From Candidatus Hydrogenedentota bacterium (lineage in GTDB: Bacteria > Hydrogenedentota > Hydrogenedentia > Hydrogenedentales > SLHB01), in the NCBI GenBank assembly GCA_045863295.1, contig BTWA01000023.1:1-64000 (forward strand): DNA of 64,000 nucleotides. Direction: 5' to 3'. Below, piece by piece: positions 3,001 through 46,667 of this stretch. The notes beneath the pieces are model-generated. The model had not been told where the DNA came from, made no database searches, and saw only the letters and a list, made by a program, of their open reading frames with translations. The stretch's first letter is position 1. Each line of letters starts with the position of its first letter. A program made the position numbers and the translations under genes.

Positions 3001-6000
3001 CGCCTACGCAGGCCAATGCACAGGCGATTTCGCGGACGGCAACGCAAGCTTCACCCGTTTCTTCTTTGGCCAGGTCGCCAACGGAGCCACTGCCGGACAG
3101 GCCTTCGGCTTCGCCGCGCAGGCCATGCGCTTTGCCAACGGCCAGGAAGCCGCTCTCGACGATAACGGCGACGGCGTCTATCTGCCCGCGCAAGACGGCG
3201 CATTCGCGCGCAACTACTACATCGGCAACGGGATGCTCACCGCCGGCGATGAACCGCTCATCGGTTCCATTGTCGGAGATCAAACCTTGACTGGCCAAAC
3301 CACCGCGGAAATCTGGGTGGAACAAGTAAGCACTACCGGGACAATTGACCGCGTGCTGGCGCTCATCACGCCTACCGGCGGATGCTATTCCGTTCCCGTG
3401 GAATTGACCGCCGACGGCAACGGCCGTTACACAGGCGTATACGCCGGATTCGGACAAATCGGCACGTACAACGTAAGCGTCACCGCCATTGATACGAAAG
3501 GTCAGGAGTCGCAGCCCGCCGAAACCATCGTGACCCAGACCTCCGGCCCCGCAAACGCAAATCCCGATGACTACGAAACCGACGATACCCCTGCCCAGGC
3601 ACAATGGATCGGGGTCGATGCGTGGCCGGATCAACAACACAATCTTCACCAGTCCGGCGATGAGGATTGGGTCCAGTTTGCAGGAACCGCCGGCGCTTCC
3701 ATCACCATTGAAACCAACTATCTTGGCGTCAACAGCGACACGCTCGTGGAACTCTACCGGCCGGATGGCGTCACCCTGATCGATTCTAACGACAATCGAG
3801 GCGCGGGGGATGTCTCATCCCACCTGACGTGGACCGTCGATATCACTGCCAACTACTTCGTGCGTGTGCGATTCTCGCCCGATGGCCTCGGAGCGGGGTT
3901 CGGAGCGGCCACCGAGTACAGCCTGCGCGTCTGGCGCGAGGCGGGCCCCTCGTTGCCGGGCAATCTGCACGTGGCAGTGGTGAACAGCGCAATAGCACCG
4001 GTCCCGGGCGCCTCGATTGCACTCGTCAATCAATCCACCTTCATCAGCGTCCAGCTTGCCGCGTTTGCGAACGGCACCTACTACTTCGCGGGCCTCGACG
4101 CAGGTCTCTACACGCTTTCGGCCACGGCGTCCGGCTACCAACCGTCCGCGCCCGCCTCTATCAACATTACAAGCGGATTGACGATCAACCAACAGATCAC
4201 CCTGCAACTCACTACCGGCTCCATCCAGACTACCCTCACACCCGCCGGCGCGAACACGGCGGGGGCGCAATGGCGCGTGGACAGCGGGGCGTGGCAGAAC
4301 AGCGGCACCAGCGTATCCGGGCTAAATCCCGGCTCATACACGGTGTCGTTCAAAGACGTCAGCGGCTGGATCACGCCCGCAAGCCAGAACGCTATTGTAA
4401 CGGCGGGCAACACCACGAACGTGAACGCGACGTACGTGGAAACTGGATCCGTGCAGGTGACCATTGAACCCTCCGGCGCGGTGACGGCCGGCGCGCAATG
4501 GCGCGTGGACGGCGGATCATGGCAGAACAGCGGCACAACCGTGAACAACCTCGCGCCCGGCGCGCACACGATTTCCTTCGGCACCATCGCCGGCTGGAAT
4601 ACGCCCGCGGATCAGAACGTGACCGTGGTTTCCGGGGAGACCGCGCAAACGACCGGCACGTACACCTTGAAGGTGGGTGCGCTGAGCGTGACCATTGCTC
4701 CCGCAGGCGCGATAGCGGCGGGGGCGAAGTGGCGCGTGGACGGCGGCGCCCCGCAGGACAGCGGCGCAACGGTGAGCGGCTTGCCCATCGGCGATCACAC
4801 GCTCTCGTTCGACGCCCTCGCGAATTGGGACGCCCCCGCAAACAAGACGGTAACCATCAGCGAAGGCGCCACCAGCAACGACTCCGGCACCTACATACGG
4901 CACACCGGATCGATTCAAATCACGATCGAACCGGCAGAGGCCGCGGCGGCAGGCGCACAGTGGCAGGTAAACGGCGGCACATTCTTCAATAGTGGAGATT
5001 CTTTCGCCGGTTTGGCCGTGGGACAGCACAATGTCGACTTTAGTTCAGTCGTCGGTTGGGCAAAACCTGGAACGATAACGGTCACGATTGTTAGAGACGA
5101 ACTTACGAGTGAGACAGGTATATACGCTAAAAACAGGGGCTCGATCACAACGATTATCGAGCCCGCGGGGGCGGTCACGGCGGGTGCGCAGTGGCGCGTC
5201 GACGGCGGGGCTTGGCAAAACAGCGGCTCGACGCAATCCGATATCGCGCCTGGCAGTCACATCGTGCAGTTCAAACCGGTGACGGACTGGACCACGCCTG
5301 ATGATCAGAACGTCACGGTTACGTCCGGTGAAGACGAACCGGTCACCGGCGTCTACGCGCAACACACCGGCTCGATACTCGTAAATATTACACCCGCCGA
5401 AGCGGTAAGCGCGGGCGCGCAATGGAAGCTCGACGATGAATCCACATGGCGCAACAGCGGCACCACCGCCACCGGCGTGACGGTGGGCAACCACGCCGTC
5501 TCGTTCAAATCCGTCGACGGCTGGGTCACGCCCACGGTGCAACTCGCCACCGTGACCAAGGACCAGGTGTCCACGAATGGTGGAACCTACGTGCGCGCCA
5601 CGATTGCCAAGCCCACGAATCTCCAAGCCAGCGACGGCACGTTCACGGACAAGGTGCAACTCACGTGGACCGGCGTCGCCGGCGCGACCAGCTACAGAAT
5701 CTTCCGCGCAAGCACGTGGGACGGCGGTGAAGCCACCACCATAGGCACCACAAGCGGCACCACCTACGACGACTTCACGGCGGCTCCGCCCACGACGACG
5801 CCTCCGCCCAGCGGCGGATGCGGCGGCAGTGGCGGCCCCGGCGAAACGAACTACGTGCTCTACATTTACTGGGTGCAGGCCCTCGGTGCGGGCGGCATCG
5901 AAAGCGATTGGTGCGATCCCAATGACGGCTACCGAGGCGGCACGGCCAAGCTCAACGACTGGTTCGACGCGCCAATACTCACGGTTTACGAACGCGCCCT

Positions 6001-16711: not shown

Positions 16712-18289
16712 TCATTCGCGATCGTCCTCCATCTGGCTCTTGCTTTCAGATTGTGAGTGAATGGCATGCGGCCGACGTGTAGAAGCGATTTCCAACCGTT
16801 CTTGAATCGATTGCCCCTGCTTCGAGTCCGTTTTTGTCTCTACAGAAAACTCGTCTGGTTTGATTGCGCCACTTGTTGTCGGTTGTTGCGCTTGATCGTT
16901 GCATTGCGATTCAGGCGTGAAGCCGGTGCCCTGTGCGGGCAGGCCCACTCCACGCGGAAACGCCTCCGGCTGTACTTTGCCGTCTTTGATGGCTTGTTCG
17001 TACGTGGTAAGGATTTCAGACAGGGGATCCTGGGTTGGGGGTGTTTGGTTGGGCGTGCGCTTTTCATCACTCCGAGTCAAGGATGGAGCGGGTCTTGTTG
17101 ATTTCTTGTTTGCTCGGTAGCAGGCGAGGATGTGGTCTCGGTGGCTTTGGGCGTAGGGTTGGTCGAGGAGGGTGGCGTTGTCGAAGGCTTGGCACATTTC
17201 GATGTCGCGGCCTTGGCCGGCGGCTTGGATGGCTTGTTGGATGTAGGCTTTGGCGTGGGTCTGGGGGGATTGGGGCGGGAGTTGGAGGGCTTGGAGTGTG
17301 GCGGGGTCGAGGCTGGTGTCGTGTTGCATGCGGTGGGCGTGGCGGAGGATGCCTTCGGGGGTTGGGGGTGCGGGGGTGTGTTTTTGACGGTTCAAGGGGG
17401 TATGGGCTGGGGCGTGGAGGGTGCGGAGGGAGGCCCTAAGTTCGCGCATGAGACGGACATAGGCGGTGATCATGGCGGGGGTGTCGGGGGACCATGGGGT
17501 GGCGGCGTTTGCGACAGTGGTGGCGGCGGCGTTGGCGAGGACTTGGAGCATGGCGACGTTGTGGGCGGTGTGGAGTCCCATGGGGTTGGGGTGGGGCTGG
17601 GTTTCGACGACGGCGAGGGCGTCGGTGAGGACGGTGTTGTATTCGAGGCGTTGGTAGGGGCAGGGGGCTTCGCCAGGCTGTAGACTGTAGGCTGCAGGCT
17701 GTAGGGGGGATGGGGATGGGAAGGACTGCAAGGACATTCTGGACGGATCCTCCTTCGCTGAAGCTACGGAGGACAGGCCCTCCTTCGCTGAAGCTTCCTC
17801 CTTCGTTAAAACTACGGAGGATGAGTCGGGGGACCAGATGGGGCCCTCCTTCGCCGAGGCTTCCTCCTTCGTTAAAACTACGGAGGACGAGACGGCGGCG
17901 TGGGGGCAGGTTTGGTGGTGGGGGCAGGTGGTGGTGCAGGTTTTTAGGCGGCGGGAGTAGAGGCCGTGGATGGTGTGGTTGCGGTTGCCTTTGGGGGCGC
18001 CGGTTTGGTTGAAGCCGCCGTGGTGGGGGCAGCGGCCTGAGGGGTGGTTGGAGGGGTTGGTGCAGGGGGTGGCTTCCTCCTTCGCTGAAGCTACGGAGGA
18101 CGAGCCCTCCTTCGCTGACGCTTCCTCCTTCGTTAAAACTACGGAGGACGAGTCGGAGGAGGGGGCGGGGGTGCGGGCGCCGCAGATTCGGTGGTTTAGT
18201 TGTTTTTCTTTGGCTTCGACTATGGCGATCCATTCTGGGGTCCAGGATCGGGCGCAGGGGGTGCCGAGGGTGGTGGTATGGGTAGGCAT
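16712..18289 (-). CDS. HGGxSTG-domain-like (phage small-terminase-like) protein interrupted in frame by repeat elements
   Basis: 'ICGART...TPC...GRCPHHGG...GAPKGNRNHTIHG' zinc-knuckle signature; AAGGA RBS upstream; the SSVVLTKEE and SSVASAKE(E) peptides are encoded by DNA palindromes. Confidence 0.6.
   Translation of the reverse strand: MPTHTTTLGTPCARSWTPEWIAIVEAKEKQLNHRICGARTPAPSSDSSSVVLTKEEASAKEGSSSVASAKEEATPCTNPSNHPSGRCPHHGGFNQTGAPKGNRNHTIHGLYSRRLKTCTTTCPHHQTCPHAAVSSSVVLTKEEASAKEGPIWSPDSSSVVLTKEEASAKEGLSSVASAKEDPSRMSLQSFPSPSPLQPAAYSLQPGEAPCPYQRLEYNTVLTDALAVVETQPHPNPMGLHTAHNVAMLQVLANAAATTVANAATPWSPDTPAMITAYVRLMRELRASLRTLHAPAHTPLNRQKHTPAPPTPEGILRHAHRMQHDTSLDPATLQALQLPPQSPQTHAKAYIQQAIQAAGQGRDIEMCQAFDNATLLDQPYAQSHRDHILACYRANKKSTRPAPSLTRSDEKRTPNQTPPTQDPLSEILTTYEQAIKDGKVQPEAFPRGVGLPAQGTGFTPESQCNDQAQQPTTSGAIKPDEFSVETKTDSKQGQSIQERLEIASTRRPHAIHSQSESKSQMEDDRE
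17675..17705. repeat. Heptamer tandem repeat (AGRCTGY x4)
   Basis: aggctgt agactgt aggctgc aggctgt agg. Confidence 0.7.
17748..17898. repeat. Cluster of five 30-bp palindromic elements, including two nested pairs
   Basis: Units at 17748-17777, outer 17778 with inner 17796-17825, and outer 17844 with inner 17862-17891; consensus TCCTCCTTCGYTRAARCTACGGAGGAYGAG. Confidence 0.92.
18075..18160. repeat. Cluster of three 30-bp palindromic elements, including one nested pair
   Basis: Unit at 18075-18104; outer 18105-18160 with inner 18123-18152. Confidence 0.92.
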
Positions 18290-18350
18290 GGTGGGGGTGT
18301 CCTTTTGTTGTAGTGGTCCTTATTTATTTAGGGCGGGGTGTTGCAGTTGC

Positions 18351-18560
18351 AGGCCGGAGGCGGGAGGCTGGAGACCGGAGGGATTAATTGTGAGAAGGTG
18401 AGAACGCGGGGAGGGGAGTCGTCCACAGATTGCACGGATTTTCACAGATAATAAGCGAAGTGGGGATGTGGGAATGGTGGTGGGTTTGGCATCTGGCAAG
18501 GGTCGCTATTTGGAGTGCGCTGGCAGAGCCCGCTTAGGCGGGCGGCGACGGCGCTTTGGC
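18351..18560. repeat. Intergenic patchwork of short repeats and palindromes
   Basis: Heptamers aggccgg/aggcggg/aggctgg/agaccgg (18351-18378); CAC(A/G)GAT x3 (18424-18449); hairpin GCCCGC-TTAG-GCGGGC (18528-18543) within a longer imperfect palindrome. Confidence 0.6.
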
Positions 18561-40583: not shown

Positions 40584-43500
40584 CTAAGTGTTTGACTCTT
40601 GATTTGCTGGTGAACGGCATTTCCTGAGATCAACACGAAATGTCCGTGCGTCGAGTGAATCGTCTGGAATTTCGCAATATCGAGTAATCGTAACTTCATT
40701 GGCATCGTCAGCCGATAGATGTTCGACGTTCCACAATTCCCAGCGGTATGACCGCTTTTGGAGATACTCCTTGTACTGCCTGCTTGTAATCTCAACAATG
40801 GTCGCGCGGCCTGTGTGTGTTTTTACCTCTACGCGAAGTTCTTCGCCGTTCCCAAATGCCCGAAGGTCAAAGCCGGGATTCAATTGTGACATCTTTTCCA
40901 CCGAATAGCCAAAGTCGTGCAGTGCTTTTTCGGCAAAACATCGGCCCGCTTCCTCCAACTCGGCTTTTTCCTGTTCCGTAAGCACAGATCCCTCATGTTC
41001 AGTTCGTGCACCTCCTGCGCCGCCGCTACCGAGCGAGGGTTGTGCCTCTTGATGATTCGCTAATTCGTATTGGGACGCGCTGGGATCCTTGAGCCGGAGA
41101 GGCCGCTTCGCAGACGAACTCGGTCCAGTTGACCCACCAGGCCCGCCGTCATTTTGGCCTCGTACAGAGAATTCGTCTTGCGTAGGTTTCGTGCCACCAC
41201 CGAAAAGTGGTTTTCCAACATCATTGCTTGAATTCTTCTCGCTGTTCCCCTGCGCCTGCGAATGCGCTTGGGCGGCGTTACTGACTGAGGCCCCTCCGAC
41301 TGATTCATCGCGTCCATCCTCATGATCTTCATCGAAGACGCGTCCGCCATAATCGCGGAGGCGGCTCTCCACCTCGGCGGCAGCAATGCCTTTACTTACA
41401 AGCTTCTCCATGCGCTGCGCGTCGCTGTTGCAGCGAAGGAGGTTCTCGTAAAAGTCAGCTTCCGACTTGGCGTCAACGAATTTCGCTACGGCTTGTCCCA
41501 ATTCTACTTCGTTCGCATGGTCTGCATGGATGTATATCTTATCTTCGTTTACATGCCAGCGTCGCGGGACCTCGCGCTGCGCGTTCTCCAGAGTCAATTT
41601 CGCGTTCAGCGTCGCCACAACTACACCATTTAATTCCTGTAGGCGAGCCGATAGATTCTCAGTAATCTGCTTGCTCCGCGTTGACCTCCAGGCATATACG
41701 TACCCCAAGGACTCTCTTAATCGCACCTGCAACTCTTCCGGGAGGCTGGACTCCTGAACCTCCATATTAACTTGTTCTTCGACTGACTCAGCGAGAGACA
41801 AGACATCGAAGTACTTCTTAGCAGCAGAACGCGAGTTAGAACTGATATGGAAAAGCCATACGTCATGCGCAAATGCGTTTACTAATGTGTTGTCATCGTC
41901 AAGATATCGCCGTTCCTTTGCAACGTACTTCCATGAGTCTCCCTTGCGGCAAAGTAGTGGACACGATGCGAAAGCACCGGGTAAGAGGTTCTCATCATTG
42001 ACTACCTCTTCGAGGCACGCAGTATACCATTTTACTATTCTGTCACGGACTTGTTCGTCCGATGCAACGCGATCGATCGGGGCCATTTCCGGTATGCGAT
42101 TCGACAGTATGGCTTTCCAATCATCTAGAGTTGTTTCACCGATTCGCTTACGAAGAGGGTGAGGAACGTCATTGCTAAGCCAGTTACGGACAACATTCTC
42201 GTCTTCGCCAAAAACACTAAGATCAATGACGGGAAGAAGATCCCCAATTGATTGCTGAGTTCGCTTGTCAGGAATCCAGTGTGAGGTGAGCGGAATGTGA
42301 TCCCTACGGTCATCACGCCTCGGTATAGGAAGTCTCTCGCAGACATCCCACCACCACTTTGCATTGACTTGCCATTGCCTGTAGTTCTGCTCCCTGCCTT
42401 TAGACCCCTTAGCCTTGATCTCTATATAGTTGCAATAGTACCTTGCCCAGTGCCTTGCTAGCAGACGGATTACCAATGTTGCCTTGCCCAGGTCGAGGCT
42501 AGCCAATGATAGCCTATCCAGATTGGTTACGCAGGCAACCCGGGCAACAAACCGCCCCTCATTGTCTTGCACAGTACTGAGGTAACTCTTCCACTCCCCG
42601 CAGTCCTCGGGTAACTGCCGAATGGCGGTCTCTTGGCGTTCCTCCACAACACGGGGATAGTCAGTGACGCCGAGCCAATTCAAGACTTGACGCTGCTGCT
42701 CCCTTTCATCTCCTAAACCATCGAAAGCGACCCAAGCCATGCCCTCCACTTCAGCGTAAAGTCTCTCTAAGAGTTCGTTTTCCCAGTCACGCCCGAAGTA
42801 AGCCAATCTCGCCTCACACCACATATTTTCTTCCACTAGCTGCGAAAGCGGGACGGGACATCGTTTTAGAGCCTCTGTCGCCTCCAATGTCTCATGCCAG
42901 TCCTGCTCAAGAATGAAACGAAGAAACCGCCCCGGATCGCCACGTTTGTCTTTCCAGTACTGCACGATTGCCTGGCCGACAGCACGCTGTATAACATTGT
43001 CGTCCGGCCCGTCGATGCCCAACTCTTTACAGAGTTTCTTGACAGGATGGTCCAGCTCGGTCAAACTCCGGATTCTGTCTCGGAACCAGTCTTTCACGAA
43101 AACCAGCGGCAGCCAATCGGGTAGACAGTCCACCCCAGCTTTCGGTGTCCATGTCACAATACGACCTGCGAGATCTGCACCTTTCAGCAGCTTACCGTCG
43201 ACAGGCACAACGGGTAACTTTTTAACATCCGCCACGCGCTTCTTATGTTCATCTCCGTAAGGCCTTTCCGCGACCCAGGCACTAAGCCACTCCCAACAAG
43301 TCCAGATCCATTCTGGGTCATCGATGTGCGAGTTGGCATTCTTACCGATGGCTGTCAACAACTCCTGATCGGCGATACTCTTACAGCCCAACTCCCTGAG
43401 CGCCTCTCGTGCTTCTATATTCTCGTCAAAGGTGGAATGCAGCAATTCTCCTCGGGCATCGGTGGCATCGAGCAAGGTCCGCCCCAAGTCGGAGTGCACG

Positions 43501-44732
43501 CTAACCGAGATCAGTCTAGCTTTGTCAATGGACAGGTGCTGGTTGCCGTCGACGTCGGCGAGTCGGAGGTCCGTAATCGCCTTTTCTGCAATGCGTTGCC
43601 AGAGATCTCGGGCGACTGGGTGGGAGTCCCTGCCATCGAACGGAGCTAGAAGCGCCACATGACTACTCGGCGCTTCGGGGCGGTACATAGCGTTCACAAA
43701 CTTGCAAACGTGGGAAGCAAGTCTGTCCGCAACCCATGCATTAAAGGGGCTGCCATCGAAGTGTATGAGGGCGGTTCGGTCACTCTTGACGAAGAATTCG
43801 GCATGAAGGAGCAGGCGTAACGGACCTTTCTGCTCCGTGGGGTAGAAAACGTGTATGGGAAGGTAGTCGGTTGTCGGTACAAAACTACCGTCCTCACGTG
43901 GTGTGGCAATAAGAAAGCTCACGCCACCCGAAGAGATGCCACTGCGCTCATCACCACTCAAATTCTTTAGCAGGTCGCCTGGTGGAATTTCAGCATATCT
44001 ATAGACCTGCCACTCATTCGGAGTAACCCCTCGGGTGTCGCTTATCGACCATACCCCGTTTCCCTCAGTTAGGATAATCTCCAGTTCAGGTGCTTCTATT
44101 CGTCGTACGTTTCGAAAGGCAAAAAGAGAATGAGGGGGCCACTCTTTAAGTAGTTGCCCCGCAGCCCGCATCTTTTCCGCCTGAATGCCACGAAGGACAA
44201 CAACTGTTTTGCAGCTGGAGAACGTCTCGAGATCGGAGTCGAGTTCTAGCGCCTTATCCCACAAGATAGGGAATGGAATCCATTGATAGGGTACATGCTC
44301 ACCATCGAATCCATTCGATTTCAGCCAGTCTTTGGCCTTACATACGTCGAACTCAATACCTTCTCCATTCACAGTGAGCACTTGGGGGTTGCGGGATACG
44401 TCGTAGACCGACTTAAATCCCACGCCTTTACGACCGATCATTCCGGCAGACTTATCCGAATAGTCGGTGCCGCAAATGGCGCTCACAGCTGAAGGGCAAA
44501 GACCTACTCCACTATCCGCCACGTATATGGCGTTGTTATTGAAGTGTATTCGAACTTCCGTGGCCTTGGCGTCATCGCAATTCTGTAGAAGTTCGAACAA
44601 CCATCGTCCTACGTGGTCTTTGGTCGCACGTTCTGCACTCCGCGCATCACGCACAATCTGCCCCGCATCGACCTTATAGACATCGAGGCGTTTCTCTCGG
44701 AAATATTCTATTGCGTCCCATATAGCACCCAT
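40584..44732 (-). CDS. Sacsin-like N-terminal GHKL ATPase + C-terminal DUF3883 (PD-(D/E)xK) nuclease-like protein, lower GC
   Basis: 'ELLQNCDDA', 'DSGVG', 'GRKGVGFKSV'; C-terminal 'NPGFDL...VEVK...ITSRQY'. Confidence 0.85.
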   Translation of the reverse strand: MGAIWDAIEYFREKRLDVYKVDAGQIVRDARSAERATKDHVGRWLFELLQNCDDAKATEVRIHFNNNAIYVADSGVGLCPSAVSAICGTDYSDKSAGMIGRKGVGFKSVYDVSRNPQVLTVNGEGIEFDVCKAKDWLKSNGFDGEHVPYQWIPFPILWDKALELDSDLETFSSCKTVVVLRGIQAEKMRAAGQLLKEWPPHSLFAFRNVRRIEAPELEIILTEGNGVWSISDTRGVTPNEWQVYRYAEIPPGDLLKNLSGDERSGISSGGVSFLIATPREDGSFVPTTDYLPIHVFYPTEQKGPLRLLLHAEFFVKSDRTALIHFDGSPFNAWVADRLASHVCKFVNAMYRPEAPSSHVALLAPFDGRDSHPVARDLWQRIAEKAITDLRLADVDGNQHLSIDKARLISVSVHSDLGRTLLDATDARGELLHSTFDENIEAREALRELGCKSIADQELLTAIGKNANSHIDDPEWIWTCWEWLSAWVAERPYGDEHKKRVADVKKLPVVPVDGKLLKGADLAGRIVTWTPKAGVDCLPDWLPLVFVKDWFRDRIRSLTELDHPVKKLCKELGIDGPDDNVIQRAVGQAIVQYWKDKRGDPGRFLRFILEQDWHETLEATEALKRCPVPLSQLVEENMWCEARLAYFGRDWENELLERLYAEVEGMAWVAFDGLGDEREQQRQVLNWLGVTDYPRVVEERQETAIRQLPEDCGEWKSYLSTVQDNEGRFVARVACVTNLDRLSLASLDLGKATLVIRLLARHWARYYCNYIEIKAKGSKGREQNYRQWQVNAKWWWDVCERLPIPRRDDRRDHIPLTSHWIPDKRTQQSIGDLLPVIDLSVFGEDENVVRNWLSNDVPHPLRKRIGETTLDDWKAILSNRIPEMAPIDRVASDEQVRDRIVKWYTACLEEVVNDENLLPGAFASCPLLCRKGDSWKYVAKERRYLDDDNTLVNAFAHDVWLFHISSNSRSAAKKYFDVLSLAESVEEQVNMEVQESSLPEELQVRLRESLGYVYAWRSTRSKQITENLSARLQELNGVVVATLNAKLTLENAQREVPRRWHVNEDKIYIHADHANEVELGQAVAKFVDAKSEADFYENLLRCNSDAQRMEKLVSKGIAAAEVESRLRDYGGRVFDEDHEDGRDESVGGASVSNAAQAHSQAQGNSEKNSSNDVGKPLFGGGTKPTQDEFSVRGQNDGGPGGSTGPSSSAKRPLRLKDPSASQYELANHQEAQPSLGSGGAGGARTEHEGSVLTEQEKAELEEAGRCFAEKALHDFGYSVEKMSQLNPGFDLRAFGNGEELRVEVKTHTGRATIVEITSRQYKEYLQKRSYRWELWNVEHLSADDANEVTITRYCEIPDDSLDARTFRVDLRKCRSPANQESNT

Positions 44733-44929: not shown

Positions 44930-45060
44930 TCATCCTACCGCAAACGCGTGCCCTGAAGCGGATTTAAGTTAACGCTCGAAGTCCACCGCTTTGTCCTTGC
45001 ATTGTCTCAAGTCTTGAGTCACGGTGAGGCAGAATTTGGACATGACGCAATTCCCCTTTT
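44930..45060 (-). pseudogene. Decayed GIY-YIG nuclease gene fragment
   Basis: Minus strand 44998-44930 translates as KDKAVDFER*LKSASGHAFAVG*, against KEKAVAFERYFKSGSGHAFANK in the intact gene at 46074-46316. Confidence 0.8.
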
Positions 45061-45068
45061 ATTTTCGC

Positions 45069-45113
45069 CTCATTCTTCGCTCCCTTCTTCAACAAGGCTA
45101 TTAAGGGCGGGAA
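45069..45113. repeat. Degenerate nested 30-bp palindromic element
   Basis: ...TTCTTCGCT[CCCTTCTTCAACAAGGCTATTAAGGGCGGG]AA has the same junctions as the copies at 46407 and 46563. Confidence 0.8.
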
Positions 45114-45231: not shown

Positions 45232-46005
45232 ATGCATCTTGAGCCCATTGGAACATTCCACTGCGAGGCGCAGTACCCTTACGACGCCGCGCGGCAGCCG
45301 GCTATGGCAGAGCCAACGGGTGGGCATATCGTGTTGGAAAAAGGCCACAACTACGAGCAAGCGTTGCAGGATATCGAGCGCTTCTCGCATATCTGGCTAC
45401 TTTACGTCTTTCACCACAACCCGCATTGGAAGCCCATGGTCCGGCCACCACGCGCGTCCAGCAAGGTGGGCGTCTTCGCCAGCTGCGCGCCCTACCGTCC
45501 CAACCCCCTTGGCCTCTCCTGCGTGGAACTGATCGCAGTCCAAGGCCTGATCTTAACTGTTGGTCCGCACGACCTCCTCGACGGTACGCCCATCCTTGAC
45601 ATAAAGCCCTACCTTCCCTATGCCGACAGTGTTCCCGAAGCGACGTGCGGCTGGGTCGAGGAGGTGGCAGAGGACGCGTGGGAAGTGTGTTTTGCCTTGG
45701 AAGCCGAGCGGCAACTCGCTTGGCTGGAACGAGCAGGGGTTCAGGCAATCCGCGCGTTCCTGCGTCAGCAACTCAGCGAACTCCCCTTCGACCAACAGCG
45801 CAAACGCATCCGGCCGCTAGCCGGCGCACAGTGGGAAATCGCGTACCGCACATGGCGGATCGAGTACGGCGTAGACGAAGCGGCGAGGAAGGTGGTGGTA
45901 CAGCAGGTTCGCTCCGCATACACCGAAGAGGACTTGCTGAGCGTGGAAGATAGATACCAGGACAAGGCGGCGCACCGGGCGTTTCGCAACGCATTTCGCA
46001 CGTGA
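45232..46005 (+). CDS. trmO: tRNA (t6A37-N6)-methyltransferase TrmO/TsaA
   Basis: 'FSHIWLLYVFH', 'VRPPR', 'GVFA...PYRPNPLGLS', 'DLLDGTPILDIKPY'. Confidence 0.92.
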   Translation: MHLEPIGTFHCEAQYPYDAARQPAMAEPTGGHIVLEKGHNYEQALQDIERFSHIWLLYVFHHNPHWKPMVRPPRASSKVGVFASCAPYRPNPLGLSCVELIAVQGLILTVGPHDLLDGTPILDIKPYLPYADSVPEATCGWVEEVAEDAWEVCFALEAERQLAWLERAGVQAIRAFLRQQLSELPFDQQRKRIRPLAGAQWEIAYRTWRIEYGVDEAARKVVVQQVRSAYTEEDLLSVEDRYQDKAAHRAFRNAFRT

Positions 46006-46006
46006 A

Positions 46007-46062
46007 CCCTTCTTCGCCGAGGCTTCGAAGGGCATGCCCTTCATAGCCTTGGCGAAGAAGGG
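46007..46062. repeat. Inverted doublet of the palindromic element (REPIN/BIME-like)
   Basis: CCCTTCTTCGCCGAGGCTTCGAAGGGC (46007-46033) and an inverted copy at 46036-46062 (rc CCCTTCTTCGCCAAGGCTATGAAGGGC). Confidence 0.9.
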
Positions 46063-46073
46063 CGTGCCTTTGC

Positions 46074-46316
46074 CTACCAAAGCCGCTTGTTCGCGAATGC
46101 ATGCCCCGAACCGGATTTGAAGTAGCGCTCGAAGGCTACCGCCTTCTCCTTATCCGAAATGGCAACGTAAGTAATCAACTGCCATGGGATGTACTTTGAA
46201 GTGTGAGACGAGCGGCCAGCGTTATGGTCGATAATGCGTTGCTCAAGATTGTCCGTAACCCCGGCATATCGCTGCTTGGGATTGGATTCGCTGACGATGA
46301 GGTAGACGTAGGTCAT
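46074..46316 (-). CDS. Stand-alone GIY-YIG nuclease (80 aa)
   Basis: 'YVY...YAG.T..L..R...HN.G...T', 'A..FE...K'; the catalytic Tyr/Arg/Glu pattern appears intact. Confidence 0.92.
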   Translation of the reverse strand: MTYVYLIVSESNPKQRYAGVTDNLEQRIIDHNAGRSSHTSKYIPWQLITYVAISDKEKAVAFERYFKSGSGHAFANKRLW

Positions 46317-46340
46317 GTATGATGTGGCCCCCCGATCATA

Positions 46341-46650
46341 CCCTACGTCGCCAAGGCTACATAGGGCATGAAGCTCGTTCACACAATAGACCGGCTCTTC
46401 TGCGCTCCCTTCTTCGCTGAAGCTACGAAGGGCGGGAATGCTATGAAGAGCACCACCATTCGGCTTACTCGCTACGCTCGAGCAAATCTAGCCTTCATCC
46501 TGCAAGAATTACCGGTTTGCCATCCGAAGCTCGTTCATACCAGCGACTGGCCCTTCTTCGCTCCCTTCTTCGCTTAAGCTACGAAGGGTGGGAAAGCTAC
46601 GAAGGGCACCATCCTTCGCTTAACTCGCTACGCTCGAGCGAAGGATGGTG
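46341..46650. repeat. Palindromic-element cluster: one single unit, then two 114-bp direct repeats each holding a nested pair, ending in a 14-bp hairpin
   Basis: Unit at 46341-46367; direct repeats 46370-46483 and 46526-46639; inner units 46407-46436 and 46563-46592; hairpin arms 46607-46620 and 46637-46650. Confidence 0.9.
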
Positions 46651-46667
46651 GAGGCGGCCGCAATTGA
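46646..46667 (-). other. 3'-end fragment of tmRNA (ssrA)/tRNA-like gene, probable att remnant
   Basis: Minus strand TCAATTGCGGCCGCCTCCACCA has a T-loop half, CGCCTCC acceptor strand and ACCA; the 5' T-stem and the rest of the gene are absent. Confidence 0.5.

What the first reader, a model, noticed from the sequence alone, without database searches (positions are those of the whole stretch)
17748..18160. Eight copies of the element sit in frame inside a protein-coding gene, splitting its Cys motifs
Seen: the 525-aa ORF stays open despite 8 copies in two clusters, three of them nested pairs. The inner units are exactly 30 bp (10 codons) and follow GCT, giving the peptides SSVVLTKEE and SSVASAKE(E). 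One cluster falls between 'CGART' and 'TPC...GRCPHHGG', the other between 'CTTTCPHHQTCPH' and 'CPY'. Deleting them restores compact zinc-knuckle-like spacing. Established: Rickettsia palindromic elements insert in frame in genes. Inference: the 3n length and a stop-free frame let the element colonise proteins and add peptide loops.
Basis: partly seen in the sequence, partly recalled or inferred. Interest (0 to 1): 0.75.

Follow-up and report, generated by a model that had tools for sequence, protein, structure and literature searches.

The report
Hairpin mini-repeats translated inside a gene
Eight copies of a 30-base hairpin-forming selfish DNA repeat, of a kind that elsewhere sits beside a tiny nuclease gene, lie in frame inside a real bacterial gene and add two floppy loops to its protein; this is a clear example of a phenomenon already known from Rickettsia and other bacteria.

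Summary
ORF 16712-18289(-) is a real, conserved Hydrogenedentota gene. It carries eight 30-nt hairpin units: five intact, and three split by a nested unit. All eight are in one reading phase. The N-terminal block is a clean 30-residue insertion, absent from all 14 aligned homologues. The second block sits in a hypervariable linker.

A covariance model built only from hairpins next to small GIY-YIG nuclease genes of other phyla finds nine significant sites in the window: five in this gene and four around the window's own GIY-YIG gene at 46.1 kb. The exact 26-nt core occurs in at least 120 stretches across many phyla. In 9 of the 80 stretches examined it lies well inside Pfam-recognisable genes.

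Each unit is 10 codons, and four of its six frames are open. AlphaFold gives low confidence exactly at the inserts.

The closest known things are intragenic REPs and Rickettsia palindromic elements, and the Ssn nuclease/SRM hairpin system. The published SRM motif does not match.

This scan has met the same unit before on other DNA (e1-2026855 and related notes). I class it as a new variant of a known kind. The nested, same-position insertions are the most interesting detail.

The parts
16712..18289 (-). Host gene: 525-aa Cys-rich protein of an unnamed multi-copy Hydrogenedentota family. It matches no Pfam family. It has a weak likeness to phage small-terminase profiles and to the HGGxSTG domain.
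   Evidence: ORF and translation. Homologues: 38. Same-genome paralogues: 4 shorter ones. Pfam: 0 families. phrog_9231 E 0.0025. NF041373 E 0.0029, below its cut-off.
18075..18164 (+). N-terminal insert block (protein residues 42-72), 90 nt, three units:
- intact unit A2, 18075-18104;
- older outer unit O3, 18105-18122 plus 18153-18164;
- nested unit B3, 18123-18152.
The strand given is the hairpin-model orientation; the mRNA is the opposite strand.
   Evidence: Model R1 hits at 18075 (E 3.9e-6) and 18123 (E 6.4e-4). Clean 30-column gap in 14 homologues.
17748..17903 (+). Linker insert block (protein residues 129-181), 156 nt:
- A1, 17748-17777;
- outer O1, 17778-17795 plus 17826-17837, with nested B1, 17796-17825;
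- 6-nt spacer, 17838-17843;
- outer O2, 17844-17861 plus 17892-17903, with nested B2, 17862-17891.
   Evidence: R1 hits at 17742 (E 1.9e-7), 17796 and 17862 (E 6.4e-4). The B units are 29-30 of 30 identical; the outer right arms are 6-8 of 12 identical.
17675..17720 (.). Other simple tandem repeats in the same linker: a 7-nt unit x4.4 and a 6-nt unit x2.5. They are also translated.
46074..46316 (-). 80-aa single-domain GIY-YIG nuclease gene. It is the candidate cognate enzyme of the hairpin family.
   Evidence: PF01541 E 7.9e-15. 38% identity over 66 residues, E 3e-9, to a 97-aa GIY-YIG gene flanked by published-motif SRM hairpins. 43-77% identical relatives in 80 loci of many phyla.
46001..46068 (.). 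Inverted pair of family hairpins just past the stop codon of the GIY-YIG gene. It folds as one long palindrome.
   Evidence: R1 hits 46001-46038(+) E 3.9e-10 and 46031-46068(-) E 1.8e-8. DNA fold -27.1 kcal/mol, z -6.8.
46340..46652 (+). Hairpins upstream of the GIY-YIG gene: a weak one at 46340-46369, then 46407-46432 and 46563-46588. The last two each lie inside the loop of a diverged outer copy. They belong to a 117-nt duplicated block.
   Evidence: (families D5, D6).
44939..45113 (.). Remnant of a second GIY-YIG gene (44939-44998, minus strand; residues 56-75, 75% identity) and a further diverged nested hairpin (45073-45113).
   Evidence: tblastn. Repeat family D6.

Best explanation
SHOWN.
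- The eight units are copies of a 30-nt (10-codon) palindromic mini-element, inserted in frame into a functional gene.
- The same hairpin family forms an inverted pair directly upstream of small single-domain GIY-YIG nuclease genes. In many phyla those genes sit just behind tRNA or tmRNA genes. One such nuclease gene and a remnant of another lie 28 kb away in this window.
- The family is a structured hairpin: an outer stem of 6-7 bp with compensatory changes, a conserved 14-nt loop and a small covarying inner stem. Read on the coding strand, it starts with a CGTC, TGTC or CATC tag.

INFERRED: why the copies are tolerated.
- One unit is exactly 10 codons.
- Four of the six frames are open.
- The frame in use gives hydrophilic Ser/Ala/Lys/Glu peptides.
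- Both blocks lie where the protein accepts loops: between two Cys ligands, and in a hypervariable linker.

INFERRED: history.
- Three older, diverged units were each entered, at the same position in their loop, by a young and nearly identical unit.
- An 86-nt composite was copied between the two sites of the gene.

INFERRED: mechanism (about 0.4).
- The hairpin extrudes in single-stranded DNA.
- An Ssn-like GIY-YIG nuclease binds it and nicks beside it.
- Copy-repair then adds units next to or inside existing ones. This would explain the tight clusters and the nesting.

My confidence is about 0.85 that these are true in-frame insertions of this family. The overall figure below includes the enzyme link.
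For: Insertion and real gene:
- 30-column gap in 14 of 14 aligned homologues.
- Matches in 9 related genomes skip residues 42-71.
- All 29 invariant columns are kept.
- Model R1 gives 0 hits in 15 orthologue and paralogue loci, 48.5 kb.

Family identity:
- R1 was built from 35 hairpins of other phyla, with no window sequence.
- With filters off it gives 9 window hits at E 3.9e-10 to 6.4e-4. All 9 are in the gene or at the GIY-YIG locus. The next best hit has E 0.36.
- In the whole 6.3-Mb genome it hits contig C23 only.

Structure:
- 98.5% of cells are paired, against 89.5% in shuffles.
- The inner pair 18-21, which I did not select for, reads CG 17, UA 16, UG 1, other 0.

Nuclease link:
- R1 hits 67 of 80 GIY-YIG loci, including 33 of the 46 loci not used for training.
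- 117 of 118 hits are upstream of the gene, although the flanks are equal on both sides.
- 72 hits are on the opposite strand, at a median 13.5 nt from the start codon.
- A tRNA or tmRNA gene lies just upstream on the same strand in 45 of 60 loci.
- The window's GIY-YIG protein is 38% identical (E 3e-9) to one flanked by published SRM hairpins.
- Ssn enzymes cut single-stranded DNA beside such hairpins (PMC11893778; sections 6, 7, 8, 10, 12 and 17 read).

Dispersal and in-frame tolerance:
- The exact core is in at least 120 stretches across many phyla, with unrelated flanks.
- 21 of 80 loci are spanned by ORFs of at least 150 aa, and 10 of those ORFs carry Pfam domains.
- 4 of 6 frames are open.
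- pLDDT is low at the inserts.

Nesting:
- Removing each inner 30 nt leaves a 30-nt unit whose loop fits the family consensus, in 3 of 3 cases. Inner units are 29-30 of 30 alike; outer right arms are 6-8 of 12 alike.
- Nested copies also occur at the GIY-YIG locus and in locus L181.
Against: - Copy number here is low: two loci in 6.3 Mb. There is no sign of current genome-wide mobility.
- Contigs of four metagenome runs show no allele without the inserts.
- I saw no consistent target-site duplication in the 84 listed flanks (inspected by eye only).
- Only 3 of 80 exact-core loci have this GIY-YIG family within 1.5 kb. The link between solo copies and the nuclease is therefore indirect.
- Five other genomes that carry the nuclease have only 0-3 hairpins each, though only 150 candidates per genome were scored.
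- The published SRM search motif matches 0 sites in the window and 0 in the 80 loci.
- The window's nuclease found nothing in two Neisseria genomes.
- Whether the nuclease belongs to the Ssn clade (cd10448) could not be tested.
- From my own knowledge, no GIY-YIG nuclease has been shown to carry out strand transfer.
- Whole-cluster DNA folds are no more stable than shuffles, z -0.24 to -1.78.
- One unit at the start of the second linker is shared in position with orthologue P0007 and, by its peptide only, with P0002. Part of that block may therefore be old.
Confidence: 0.7

Rival explanations
1. The repeats are home-grown. On this reading, a low-complexity linker expanded in place by replication slippage, and only by chance resembles repeats elsewhere.
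For: - The second block lies in a linker that also holds 7-nt and 6-nt tandem repeats.
- That linker varies from 10 to about 110 residues among homologues.
- The 86-nt composite is duplicated within the gene at 94% identity, so local copying did occur.
- L181 could be read as an 18-nt tandem duplication.
Against: - The exact 26-nt core occurs in at least 120 stretches of unrelated phyla, with unrelated flanks.
- A model trained only on other phyla finds the units.
- The N-terminal block is not in a repeat-prone linker. It lies inside a conserved Cys motif.
- The nested halves differ in sequence, which slippage would not produce.
Confidence: 0.05
2. The hairpins are REPs mobilised by a Y1 (RAYT/IS200-type) transposase and not by the GIY-YIG nuclease. 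On this reading the nuclease is only a neighbour that uses the hairpin as its own regulatory or landing site.
For: - The genome has 5 Y1_Tnp matches over the Pfam cut-off.
- REPs and REPINs are thought to be moved by RAYTs (PMC3116915 and PMC3337134, abstracts in the search listing only; PMC3733652, abstract and sections 6 and 15).
- The A and B units contain GTAG on the coding strand.
- Solo copies are rarely near the GIY-YIG gene: 3 of 80.
Against: - No hairpin lies on the contigs that hold the Y1 genes (C2, C20, C32, C9). All model hits are on C23.
- GTAG here is inside the loop and not a 5' unpaired tag. In the gene-adjacent consensus it is mostly GAAG.
- 67 of 80 GIY-YIG loci carry the hairpin at a fixed place.
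Confidence: 0.12
3. The blocks are an assembly artefact of a metagenome-assembled genome, caused by repeat-induced misjoins or a wrong unit count.
For: - The genome is a draft of 88 contigs.
- Short-read contigs break exactly at the 26-27-nt repeated cores, and none spans both clusters.
- One contig in the probable source run shows a 1019-nt skip (17401 to 18421) with only 21 letters on its shorter side.
Against: - Contigs from three other studies reproduce each cluster with its flanks at 0 differences.
- The reading frame stays open and conserved on both sides.
- The unit count gives exact multiples of 30 nt.
Confidence: 0.03
4. The gene copy is a decaying paralogue that is no longer translated. 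On this reading the inserts are neutral junk and not protein loops.
For: - No RNA run was listed for the stretch (this is no evidence either way).
- The family has 4 other paralogues in the genome that could cover the function.
- This copy carries more repeat-derived sequence than any paralogue.
Against: - No stop or frameshift in 525 codons.
- All 29 invariant residues are kept.
- Conserved motifs remain up to residue ~455.
- AlphaFold models the conserved parts with confidence.
- An identical allele occurs in runs of several studies.
Confidence: 0.1

Closest known systems
Rickettsia palindromic elements (RPE) and other intragenic REPs (Di Nocera, De Gregorio and Rocco 2013, PMC3733652; abstract and sections 6 and 15 read. 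Ogata et al. 2000 is recalled, not read.)
   Same: - Short palindromic repeats lie in frame inside functional genes and add 10-80 residues.
- They often occur as dimers or clusters, and sometimes twice in one gene.
- They are tolerated in surface loops.
- RPE-4 and RPE-6 are CGTC-tagged REPs. The units here also begin with CGTC, TGTC or CATC on the coding strand.
   Different: - The stem and loop sequences differ. The CGTC families have 8-9-bp stems that start with A/T pairs, 4-5-nt loops and a CCA tail. Here there is a 6-7-bp GC-rich stem, a 14-nt loop region with a 3-bp inner stem, and a YARR tail on the model strand.
- Copy number in this genome is very low (two loci), not hundreds.
- The exact 26-nt core is shared across many phyla.
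- Units are nested inside each other's loops.
Ssn nucleases with NTS/SRM hairpin repeats (Chenal et al. 2025, Nat Commun, PMC11893778; sections 6, 7, 8, 10, 12 and 17 and Supplementary Data 4 read)
   Same: - A tiny single-domain GIY-YIG gene (80 aa here, 94 aa for SsnA) is physically tied to an oriented hairpin repeat.
- The repeat also occurs away from the gene.
- The window's protein is 38% identical (E 3e-9) to a GIY-YIG gene flanked on both sides by motif-matching SRMs.
- Five of five species that hold close relatives of the window's nuclease are listed in Supplementary Data 4 with an SsnA or cd10448 homologue, though none shows SRM enrichment. The listed homologue may be another gene.
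   Different: - The published SRM search motif finds 0 sites here and 0 in 80 related loci.
- The hairpins lie upstream of the gene only, as an inverted pair behind a tRNA or tmRNA gene. This is not the NTS-gene-NTS arrangement.
[quoted passage not shown] This family is often in frame inside genes.
- Enzyme activity is untested.
REPIN/RAYT system (Bertels and Rainey 2011, PMC3116915; abstract in the search listing only)
   Same: - Hairpin repeats occur as inverted doublets.
- One associated single-copy enzyme gene is flanked by them.
- The proposed mobilisation goes through single-stranded hairpins.
   Different: - The associated gene here is a GIY-YIG nuclease, not a Y1 transposase.
- There is no 5' GTAG tag.
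- The Y1 genes of this genome are not near the hairpins.

Membership tests
Intragenic palindromic repeats (RPE-like / intragenic REP) | Short repeated palindromic unit able to fold as a hairpin | tested here: met
   A 6-bp perfect outer stem in the 5 complete units. Family-wide covariation: 98.5% of cells paired, with compensatory changes in 6 of 10 pairs.
Intragenic palindromic repeats (RPE-like / intragenic REP) | Lies in frame in a functional ORF and is absent from homologues | tested here: met
   For the second block, one unit is shared in position with orthologue P0007.
Intragenic palindromic repeats (RPE-like / intragenic REP) | High copy number dispersed in the same genome | tested here: not met
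   Only two loci, both on contig C23, in a 6.3-Mb genome that is 96% complete.
CGTC-tagged REP families 1-4 (Di Nocera 2013) | Unpaired CGTC (or TGTC/CCTC) tag at one end | tested here: met
   Read on the coding strand, the 5 complete units begin with CGTC (3), TGTC (1) and CATC (1). This is derived from the unit tails. Most copies in other phyla have TGTC (tail CAAG or CAGG).
CGTC-tagged REP families 1-4 (Di Nocera 2013) | 8-9-bp stem starting with A/T pairs, 4-5-nt loop, CCA-like tail | tested here: not met
   The stem is GC-rich and 6-7 bp. The loop region is 14 nt with a 3-bp inner stem. There is no CCA tail (compared with section 6 of PMC3733652).
SRM (Ssn-related motif) | Matches the published degenerate search sequence | tested here: not met
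   0 matches in the 64-kb window and 0 in 234,489 bases of 80 GIY-YIG loci. The same expression does find 3 sites around a Sphingopyxis GIY-YIG gene, so the test works.
Ssn nuclease family (cd10448) | Single-domain GIY-YIG protein of about 80-100 aa | tested here: met
   80 aa, with PF01541 covering residues 2-69 and no other family. The Tyr, Tyr, Arg, His and Glu positions align with those of the SRM-flanked homologue.
Ssn nuclease family (cd10448) | Gene physically associated with its own hairpin repeat | tested here: met
   67 of 80 loci, with 117 of 118 hits upstream of the gene. In the window itself, 4 significant hits lie within 320 nt of the gene.
Ssn nuclease family (cd10448) | Falls in the cd10448 clade of the GIY-YIG tree | tested here: inconclusive
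   - No CDD tool was available here.
- 38% identity, E 3e-9, to one SRM-flanked protein.
- No match in two Neisseria genomes at E 0.01.
- The best PDB match is a UPF0213 protein at E 0.015.
- Supplementary Data 4 lists cd10448 homologues in 4 of 5 host species checked, two of them with low CDD scores.
Ssn nuclease family (cd10448) | Site-specific cleavage of single-stranded DNA beside the hairpin | not testable with these tools
   This needs a biochemical assay.
REP/RAYT (REPIN) | Y1 transposase gene flanked by the repeats; 5' GTAG tag | tested here: not met
   The 5 Y1_Tnp matches lie on other contigs with no hairpin hits. GTAG is internal, and is replaced by GAAG in the consensus.
MITE | Terminal inverted repeats plus a target-site duplication | tested here: inconclusive
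   The whole unit is one hairpin. I saw no consistent duplication in 84 flanks, but this was inspection by eye, not a formal test.
Any Rfam RNA family | Match to a curated covariance model | tested here: not met
   0 matches at gathering score in the window. 0 matches at E up to 1 in 17600-18300.

The most novel reading that the evidence does not exclude
The 30-nt unit may integrate site-specifically into the single-stranded loop of another copy of itself. All three nested units in this gene sit at the same loop position, directly after GCT. Nested copies at the nuclease locus also follow a GCT.

In addition, the same codon position of the second linker appears to have been hit independently in a different orthologue.

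If both hold, this gene preserves direct footprints of how GIY-YIG-linked hairpins multiply: by targeting extruded hairpin loops in single-stranded DNA. That mechanism has not been shown for any REP, SRM or RPE family.
Probability: 0.25. Interest if true: 0.7.

Novelty: new variant of a known kind. Interest (0 to 1): 0.5.

Why it matters
How short palindromic repeats such as REPs, RPEs and Neisseria dRS3/NTS multiply, and why some end up translated inside proteins, is still unsettled. The Ssn work of 2025 tied one such repeat class to a tiny GIY-YIG nuclease but gave no route of spread.

This gene offers a compact natural record of that process:
- old and young units of one family;
- nesting at a fixed loop position;
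- a copied composite;
- a candidate nuclease gene 28 kb away.

All of this is in a genome with almost no other copies, so each event can be read.

It also shows that a 30-residue repeat-coded loop can sit between the first two cysteines of a conserved Cys/His motif without loss of the conserved residues. That bears on how proteins gain new loops.

The specific hairpin family has an exact 26-nt core shared across many phyla and often lies in frame in housekeeping genes. I found it in no paper. The searches were made, over open-access full text only. The scan itself has met the family several times.

Tried and rejected
- Rfam: no match at gathering score over the window, and none at E up to 1 over 17600-18300.
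- Published SRM motif: 0 matches.
- Protein search with the insert region (residues 135-185): only the query itself among 154 candidates of 288-919 aa. This is a limit of the word index and not an absence, since my own ORF scan found the same peptides in other loci.
- Literature search for six peptide strings coded by the unit: 0 papers.
- Broader literature searches gave only the Ssn and Di Nocera papers as relevant. The Minerva preprint mentions SsnA-associated NTS repeats only as a benchmark (passages only).
- RNA evidence: no RNA holder listed.
- Empty-site alleles: none seen in contigs of 4 runs.
- The NTS-pair locus L216, which I hoped was an NTS-gene-NTS cassette, holds only repeats and no GIY-YIG ORF.
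- Window nuclease against two Neisseria genomes: not found with this query.
- Whole-cluster folding: not more stable than shuffles.
- Context of the four paralogues: no phage or mobile-element neighbourhood was evident from the ORF lists. The neighbours were not scanned against Pfam.
- Phylogeny of the host family, 21 rows. L341 and L350 were left out. L352, L353, L355 and L362 were not added, as they duplicate proteins already included or are fragments. L357 and L358 are partial, and L358 sits on a very long branch. The three bearers of the linker hairpin peptide need at least 2 changes on well-supported branches. P0007's sister P0010 lacks the peptide, and P0001 and P0002 are unresolved. This favours recurrent gain but does not exclude one gain followed by several losses.
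- P0002's DNA was not seen. Its unit is inferred from the peptide alone.
Full report
**What is there**

The ORF 16712-18289 on the minus strand encodes 525 residues. Between 17748 and 18164 it holds eight units of one repeat.

Five units are complete. Each has a 6-bp stem, 14 nt between the arms, and the complementary arm, 26 nt in all, followed by a 4-nt tail. They start at 17748, 17796, 17862, 18075 and 18123. The pattern search gave 5 matches against 0 expected in 100 shuffles.

The complete units come in two loop variants. Type A is at 17748 and 18075. Type B is at 17796, 17862 and 18123.

Three further units start at 17778, 17844 and 18105. Each is interrupted after its first 18 nt by one complete type-B unit of exactly 30 nt, and then resumes.

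All eight units are in the same codon phase. Together they code 80 of the 525 residues. An 86-nt composite (A unit plus nested pair) is present at both sites at 94% identity.

**The gene is real and the blocks are insertions**

- The protein has 38 homologues in public data, the best at E 2.5e-112. The named ones are from Hydrogenedentota assemblies.
- The same genome has four shorter paralogues of 332-361 residues. They match query residues 5-42, 73-135 and 205-350, that is, everything except the two blocks.
- In an alignment with 10 orthologues and 4 paralogues, the N-terminal block is a clean 30-column gap in all 14. It falls between CGAR(T/L)P and xxTPC, inside a conserved Cys/His motif.
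- The second block lies in a linker between CP(H/L/C) and CPYQ. That linker is about 12 residues in the paralogues and 10 to about 110 in orthologues, where it is filled with other repeat-like peptides.
- In 41 related genomes, 10 (counting the window's own) have a match. Every match skips residues 42-71.
- The query keeps all 29 invariant columns of a 26-sequence alignment.
- AlphaFold2 on that alignment gives pLDDT 82-96 for residues 1-40, then 53-60 for 41-70, 80-86 for 71-90, about 40 for 141-205, and above 90 again from 211. The blocks therefore behave as floppy loops between folded parts.
- No domain library names the family. There is no Pfam match. The other hits are weak: phrog_9231 small terminase, E 0.0025, and NCBIfam HGGxSTG, E 0.0029 and below its cut-off.

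**Assembly**

Logan contigs break at the repeated 26-27-nt cores, as short-read graphs do. No single contig spans both clusters. Even so, contigs from three studies other than the probable source cover each cluster with its flanks at 0 differences:
- X2: 17743-17893 and 17952-18145;
- X3: 17774-17888 and 18001-18149;
- X5: 17707-17886 and 18059-18283.

No contig showed a form without the blocks.

**What the repeat is**

In the whole 6.3-Mb genome the hairpin occurs at only two places, both in this window: the gene, and the region 45.0-46.7 kb. At the second place the stems differ but remain complementary.

That second region holds an 80-residue ORF, 46074-46316(-), which is a GIY-YIG nuclease domain and nothing else (PF01541, E 7.9e-15). 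It also holds a remnant of a second copy at 44939-44998.

I fetched 80 loci encoding relatives of this nuclease, 43-77% identical. They come from Alphaproteobacteria, Opitutaceae, Nitrospirota, Tectomicrobia, candidate-phyla bacteria and others.

- A simple scan (loop pattern plus at least 4 complementary stem bases) found 37 hairpins in 36 of the 80 loci, nearly all just upstream of the gene.
- I aligned 35 of these, dropping the two that had only a 4-bp stem.
- The outer stem shows compensatory changes in 5 of 7 pairs. My filter selected for the inner four of those pairs.
- The inner pair 18-21, which the filter did not constrain, reads CG 17, UA 16, UG 1 and nothing else.

A covariance model (R1) built from these 35 sequences includes no window sequence. 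Run over the window with filters off, it gave nine hits between E 3.9e-10 and 6.4e-4. Five are the complete units of the gene and four lie around the nuclease gene. The next best hit has E 0.36.

The repeat in the gene is therefore a member of the hairpin family that accompanies this nuclease.

**Anatomy of the nuclease cassette**

- R1 hits 67 of the 80 loci with 118 hits. That includes 33 of the 46 loci that gave no training sequence.
- 117 of the 118 hits are upstream of the gene, although the flanks are equal on both sides.
- 72 hits are on the strand opposite to the gene, a median 13.5 nt from its start. 45 are on the gene's strand, a median 92 nt upstream. Together they form an inverted pair.
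- In 45 of 60 loci scanned, a tRNA gene (mostly tRNA-Ser) or a tmRNA gene lies just upstream on the same strand.
- The window itself has no tRNA gene.
- Five other genomes that carry the nuclease have 0-3 hairpins each. Only 150 candidates per genome were scored.

**Dispersal and in-frame copies elsewhere**

They include Bacteroidota, Verrucomicrobiota, Lentisphaerota, Planctomycetota, many candidate phyla, Elusimicrobiota, Cloacimonadota, Gamma- and Deltaproteobacteria, and an isolate chromosome.

- In the 80 loci with flanks, the neighbouring sequence is unrelated. What is shared is the 26 nt plus a 4-nt tail, a 30-nt unit that reads SSFAKATEDK in one frame.
- One locus has a tandem array with a 30-nt period. 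By eye, several copies abut what look like tRNA genes; I did not confirm these with a tRNA finder.
- Only 3 of the 80 have this nuclease family within 1.5 kb.
- 21 of the 80 are spanned by an ORF of at least 150 residues with at least 30 residues on each side. 10 of those ORFs carry Pfam domains: Tgt, FtsK, PheS, a protein kinase, DNA polymerase I, an RNase H-like protein, GMP synthase, an Eco57I-type methylase and two methyltransferase-type hits, one of them near the N-terminus.
- Four of the six frames of a unit, and of each whole cluster, are open.

**History within the gene**

- Taking out each inner unit leaves a 30-nt outer unit whose loop again fits the family consensus, in 3 of 3 cases.
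- The inner units are 29-30 of 30 identical to each other. The outer right arms are only 6-8 of 12 identical, and their stems have decayed.
- The outer units therefore look old and the inner ones young, or homogenised.
- All three inner units sit at the same loop position, directly after GCT.
- Nested copies, also placed after a GCT, occur at the nuclease locus (46395-46450 and 46554-46600). One occurs in another genome (L181), though that one can also be read as an 18-nt duplication.

In the orthologue P0007 from another assembly, R1 finds one unit with a different but complementary stem (E 2.5e-4). It sits exactly after TCPL, the same codon position where the first outer unit starts here. 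P0002 has a matching peptide at that position, but its DNA was not seen.

On a tree of 21 family members, the three bearers need at least two changes on well-supported branches. P0007's sister (100/99 support) lacks the unit, and P0001 and P0002 are unresolved. This favours repeated hits at one site, without excluding one gain and several losses.

**Comparison with what is known**

Intragenic palindromic repeats are established.
- Di Nocera et al. (PMC3733652; abstract and sections 6 and 15 read) list REPs inside ORFs in several species. Dimers encode 20-30 residues and clusters up to 82.
- They equate Rickettsia RPE-4 and RPE-6, and Neisseria dRS3, with CGTC-tagged REPs.
- Chenal et al. (PMC11893778; sections 6, 7, 8, 10, 12 and 17 read) showed that such hairpins (NTS/SRM) flank single-domain GIY-YIG genes (Ssn, cd10448). 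The enzyme cuts single-stranded DNA beside the hairpin.

How the present family compares:
- It has the same logic, and on the coding strand it carries a CGTC, TGTC or CATC start.
- Its stem, loop and tail do not fit the four CGTC families.
- The published SRM search motif finds nothing in the window or in the 80 loci. The same expression does find three sites around a Sphingopyxis GIY-YIG gene.
- The window's nuclease is 38% identical (E 3e-9) to that SRM-flanked protein. It found nothing in two Neisseria genomes.
- Supplementary Data 4 of the Ssn paper lists an SsnA or cd10448 homologue, without SRM enrichment (0.7- to 1.9-fold), in all five host species that I looked up. The listed homologue need not be the same gene.
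- Membership in the Ssn clade therefore stays open.
- The five Y1 transposase genes of the genome are not near any hairpin.

**Verdict**

This is a translated, in-frame cluster of a GIY-YIG-linked hairpin mini-element: a new variant of a known kind. This scan has already met the same 30-nt unit in another genome (e1-2026855) and the tRNA-end nuclease cassette in others (e1-2093421, e1-1251047).

What this window adds:
- eight units in one gene;
- one block between ligands of a Cys motif;
- old and young units nested at a fixed loop position;
- an otherwise almost repeat-free genome with the candidate nuclease close by.

How the units are copied is not shown. Nicking by the nuclease at extruded hairpins, followed by copy-repair, is my best guess at about 0.4.

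Noticed in passing
L009-L088 (loci of GIY-YIG relatives): In 45 of 60 loci scanned, a tRNA gene (mostly tRNA-Ser; also Leu, Tyr, Val, Gly, Glu, Ala) or a tmRNA gene ends 90-200 nt before the small GIY-YIG gene, on the same strand. A hairpin starts at or near the tRNA's 3' end. This looks like a cassette that lands behind tRNA and tmRNA genes.
   Followed up: partly
window 46001-46068: Two family hairpins in inverted orientation form a 62-nt near-perfect palindrome right after the stop codon of the GIY-YIG gene and of the convergent TrmO-like gene (45232-46005). The DNA fold has z -6.8. It may act as a bidirectional terminator.
   Followed up: no
window 44939-45113: A remnant of a second GIY-YIG gene (residues 56-75, 75% identity) lies beside another diverged nested hairpin. 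It sits directly after the 1382-aa ORF 40584-44732(-), which I did not characterise.
   Followed up: no
window 17675-17720, and homologues P0003, P0006, P0007, P0008, P0010: The linkers of this protein family collect several unrelated repeat-coded peptides. Here they are 7-nt and 6-nt tandem repeats. In homologues they are peptides such as SAIRIPQ, SITSIQSIPSI, KSKIENPKS and ARASRPC. The linkers seem to be general sinks for small repeats.
   Followed up: no
mRNA strand of 16712-18289: Each of the eight units puts a strong Shine-Dalgarno-like GAAGGAGG inside the coding sequence, at nucleotides 159, 177, 207, 420, 438, 486, 504 and 534 of the CDS. Upstream of GIY-YIG genes, the same arm lies a few bases before the start codon and may serve as their ribosome-binding site.
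   Followed up: no
L149 (Lentisphaeria chromosome) and L092: L149 has four exact cores at a 101-102-nt period next to a GIY-YIG gene. L092 has a tandem array of diverging units with a 30-nt period inside a 338-aa ORF.
   Followed up: no
L209-L288 (scan with the Neisseria NTS consensus): The exact 28-nt NTS consensus occurs in at least 129 stretches far outside Neisseria, including Dehalococcoidia, Planctomycetota, Nitrospirota and many Proteobacteria. It often occurs as inverted pairs. So exact cross-phylum sharing is not peculiar to the family studied here.
   Followed up: no
window 4214-5235: Four to five copies of a 228-231-nt tandem repeat, 66-77% identical. This is probably a repeated protein domain (families D1, D4, D7).
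   Followed up: no
G000 contigs C2, C20, C32, C9: Five Y1 (IS200/RAYT-type) transposase matches over the Pfam cut-off, one of them with an internal TAG. None is near the hairpin family.
   Followed up: partly
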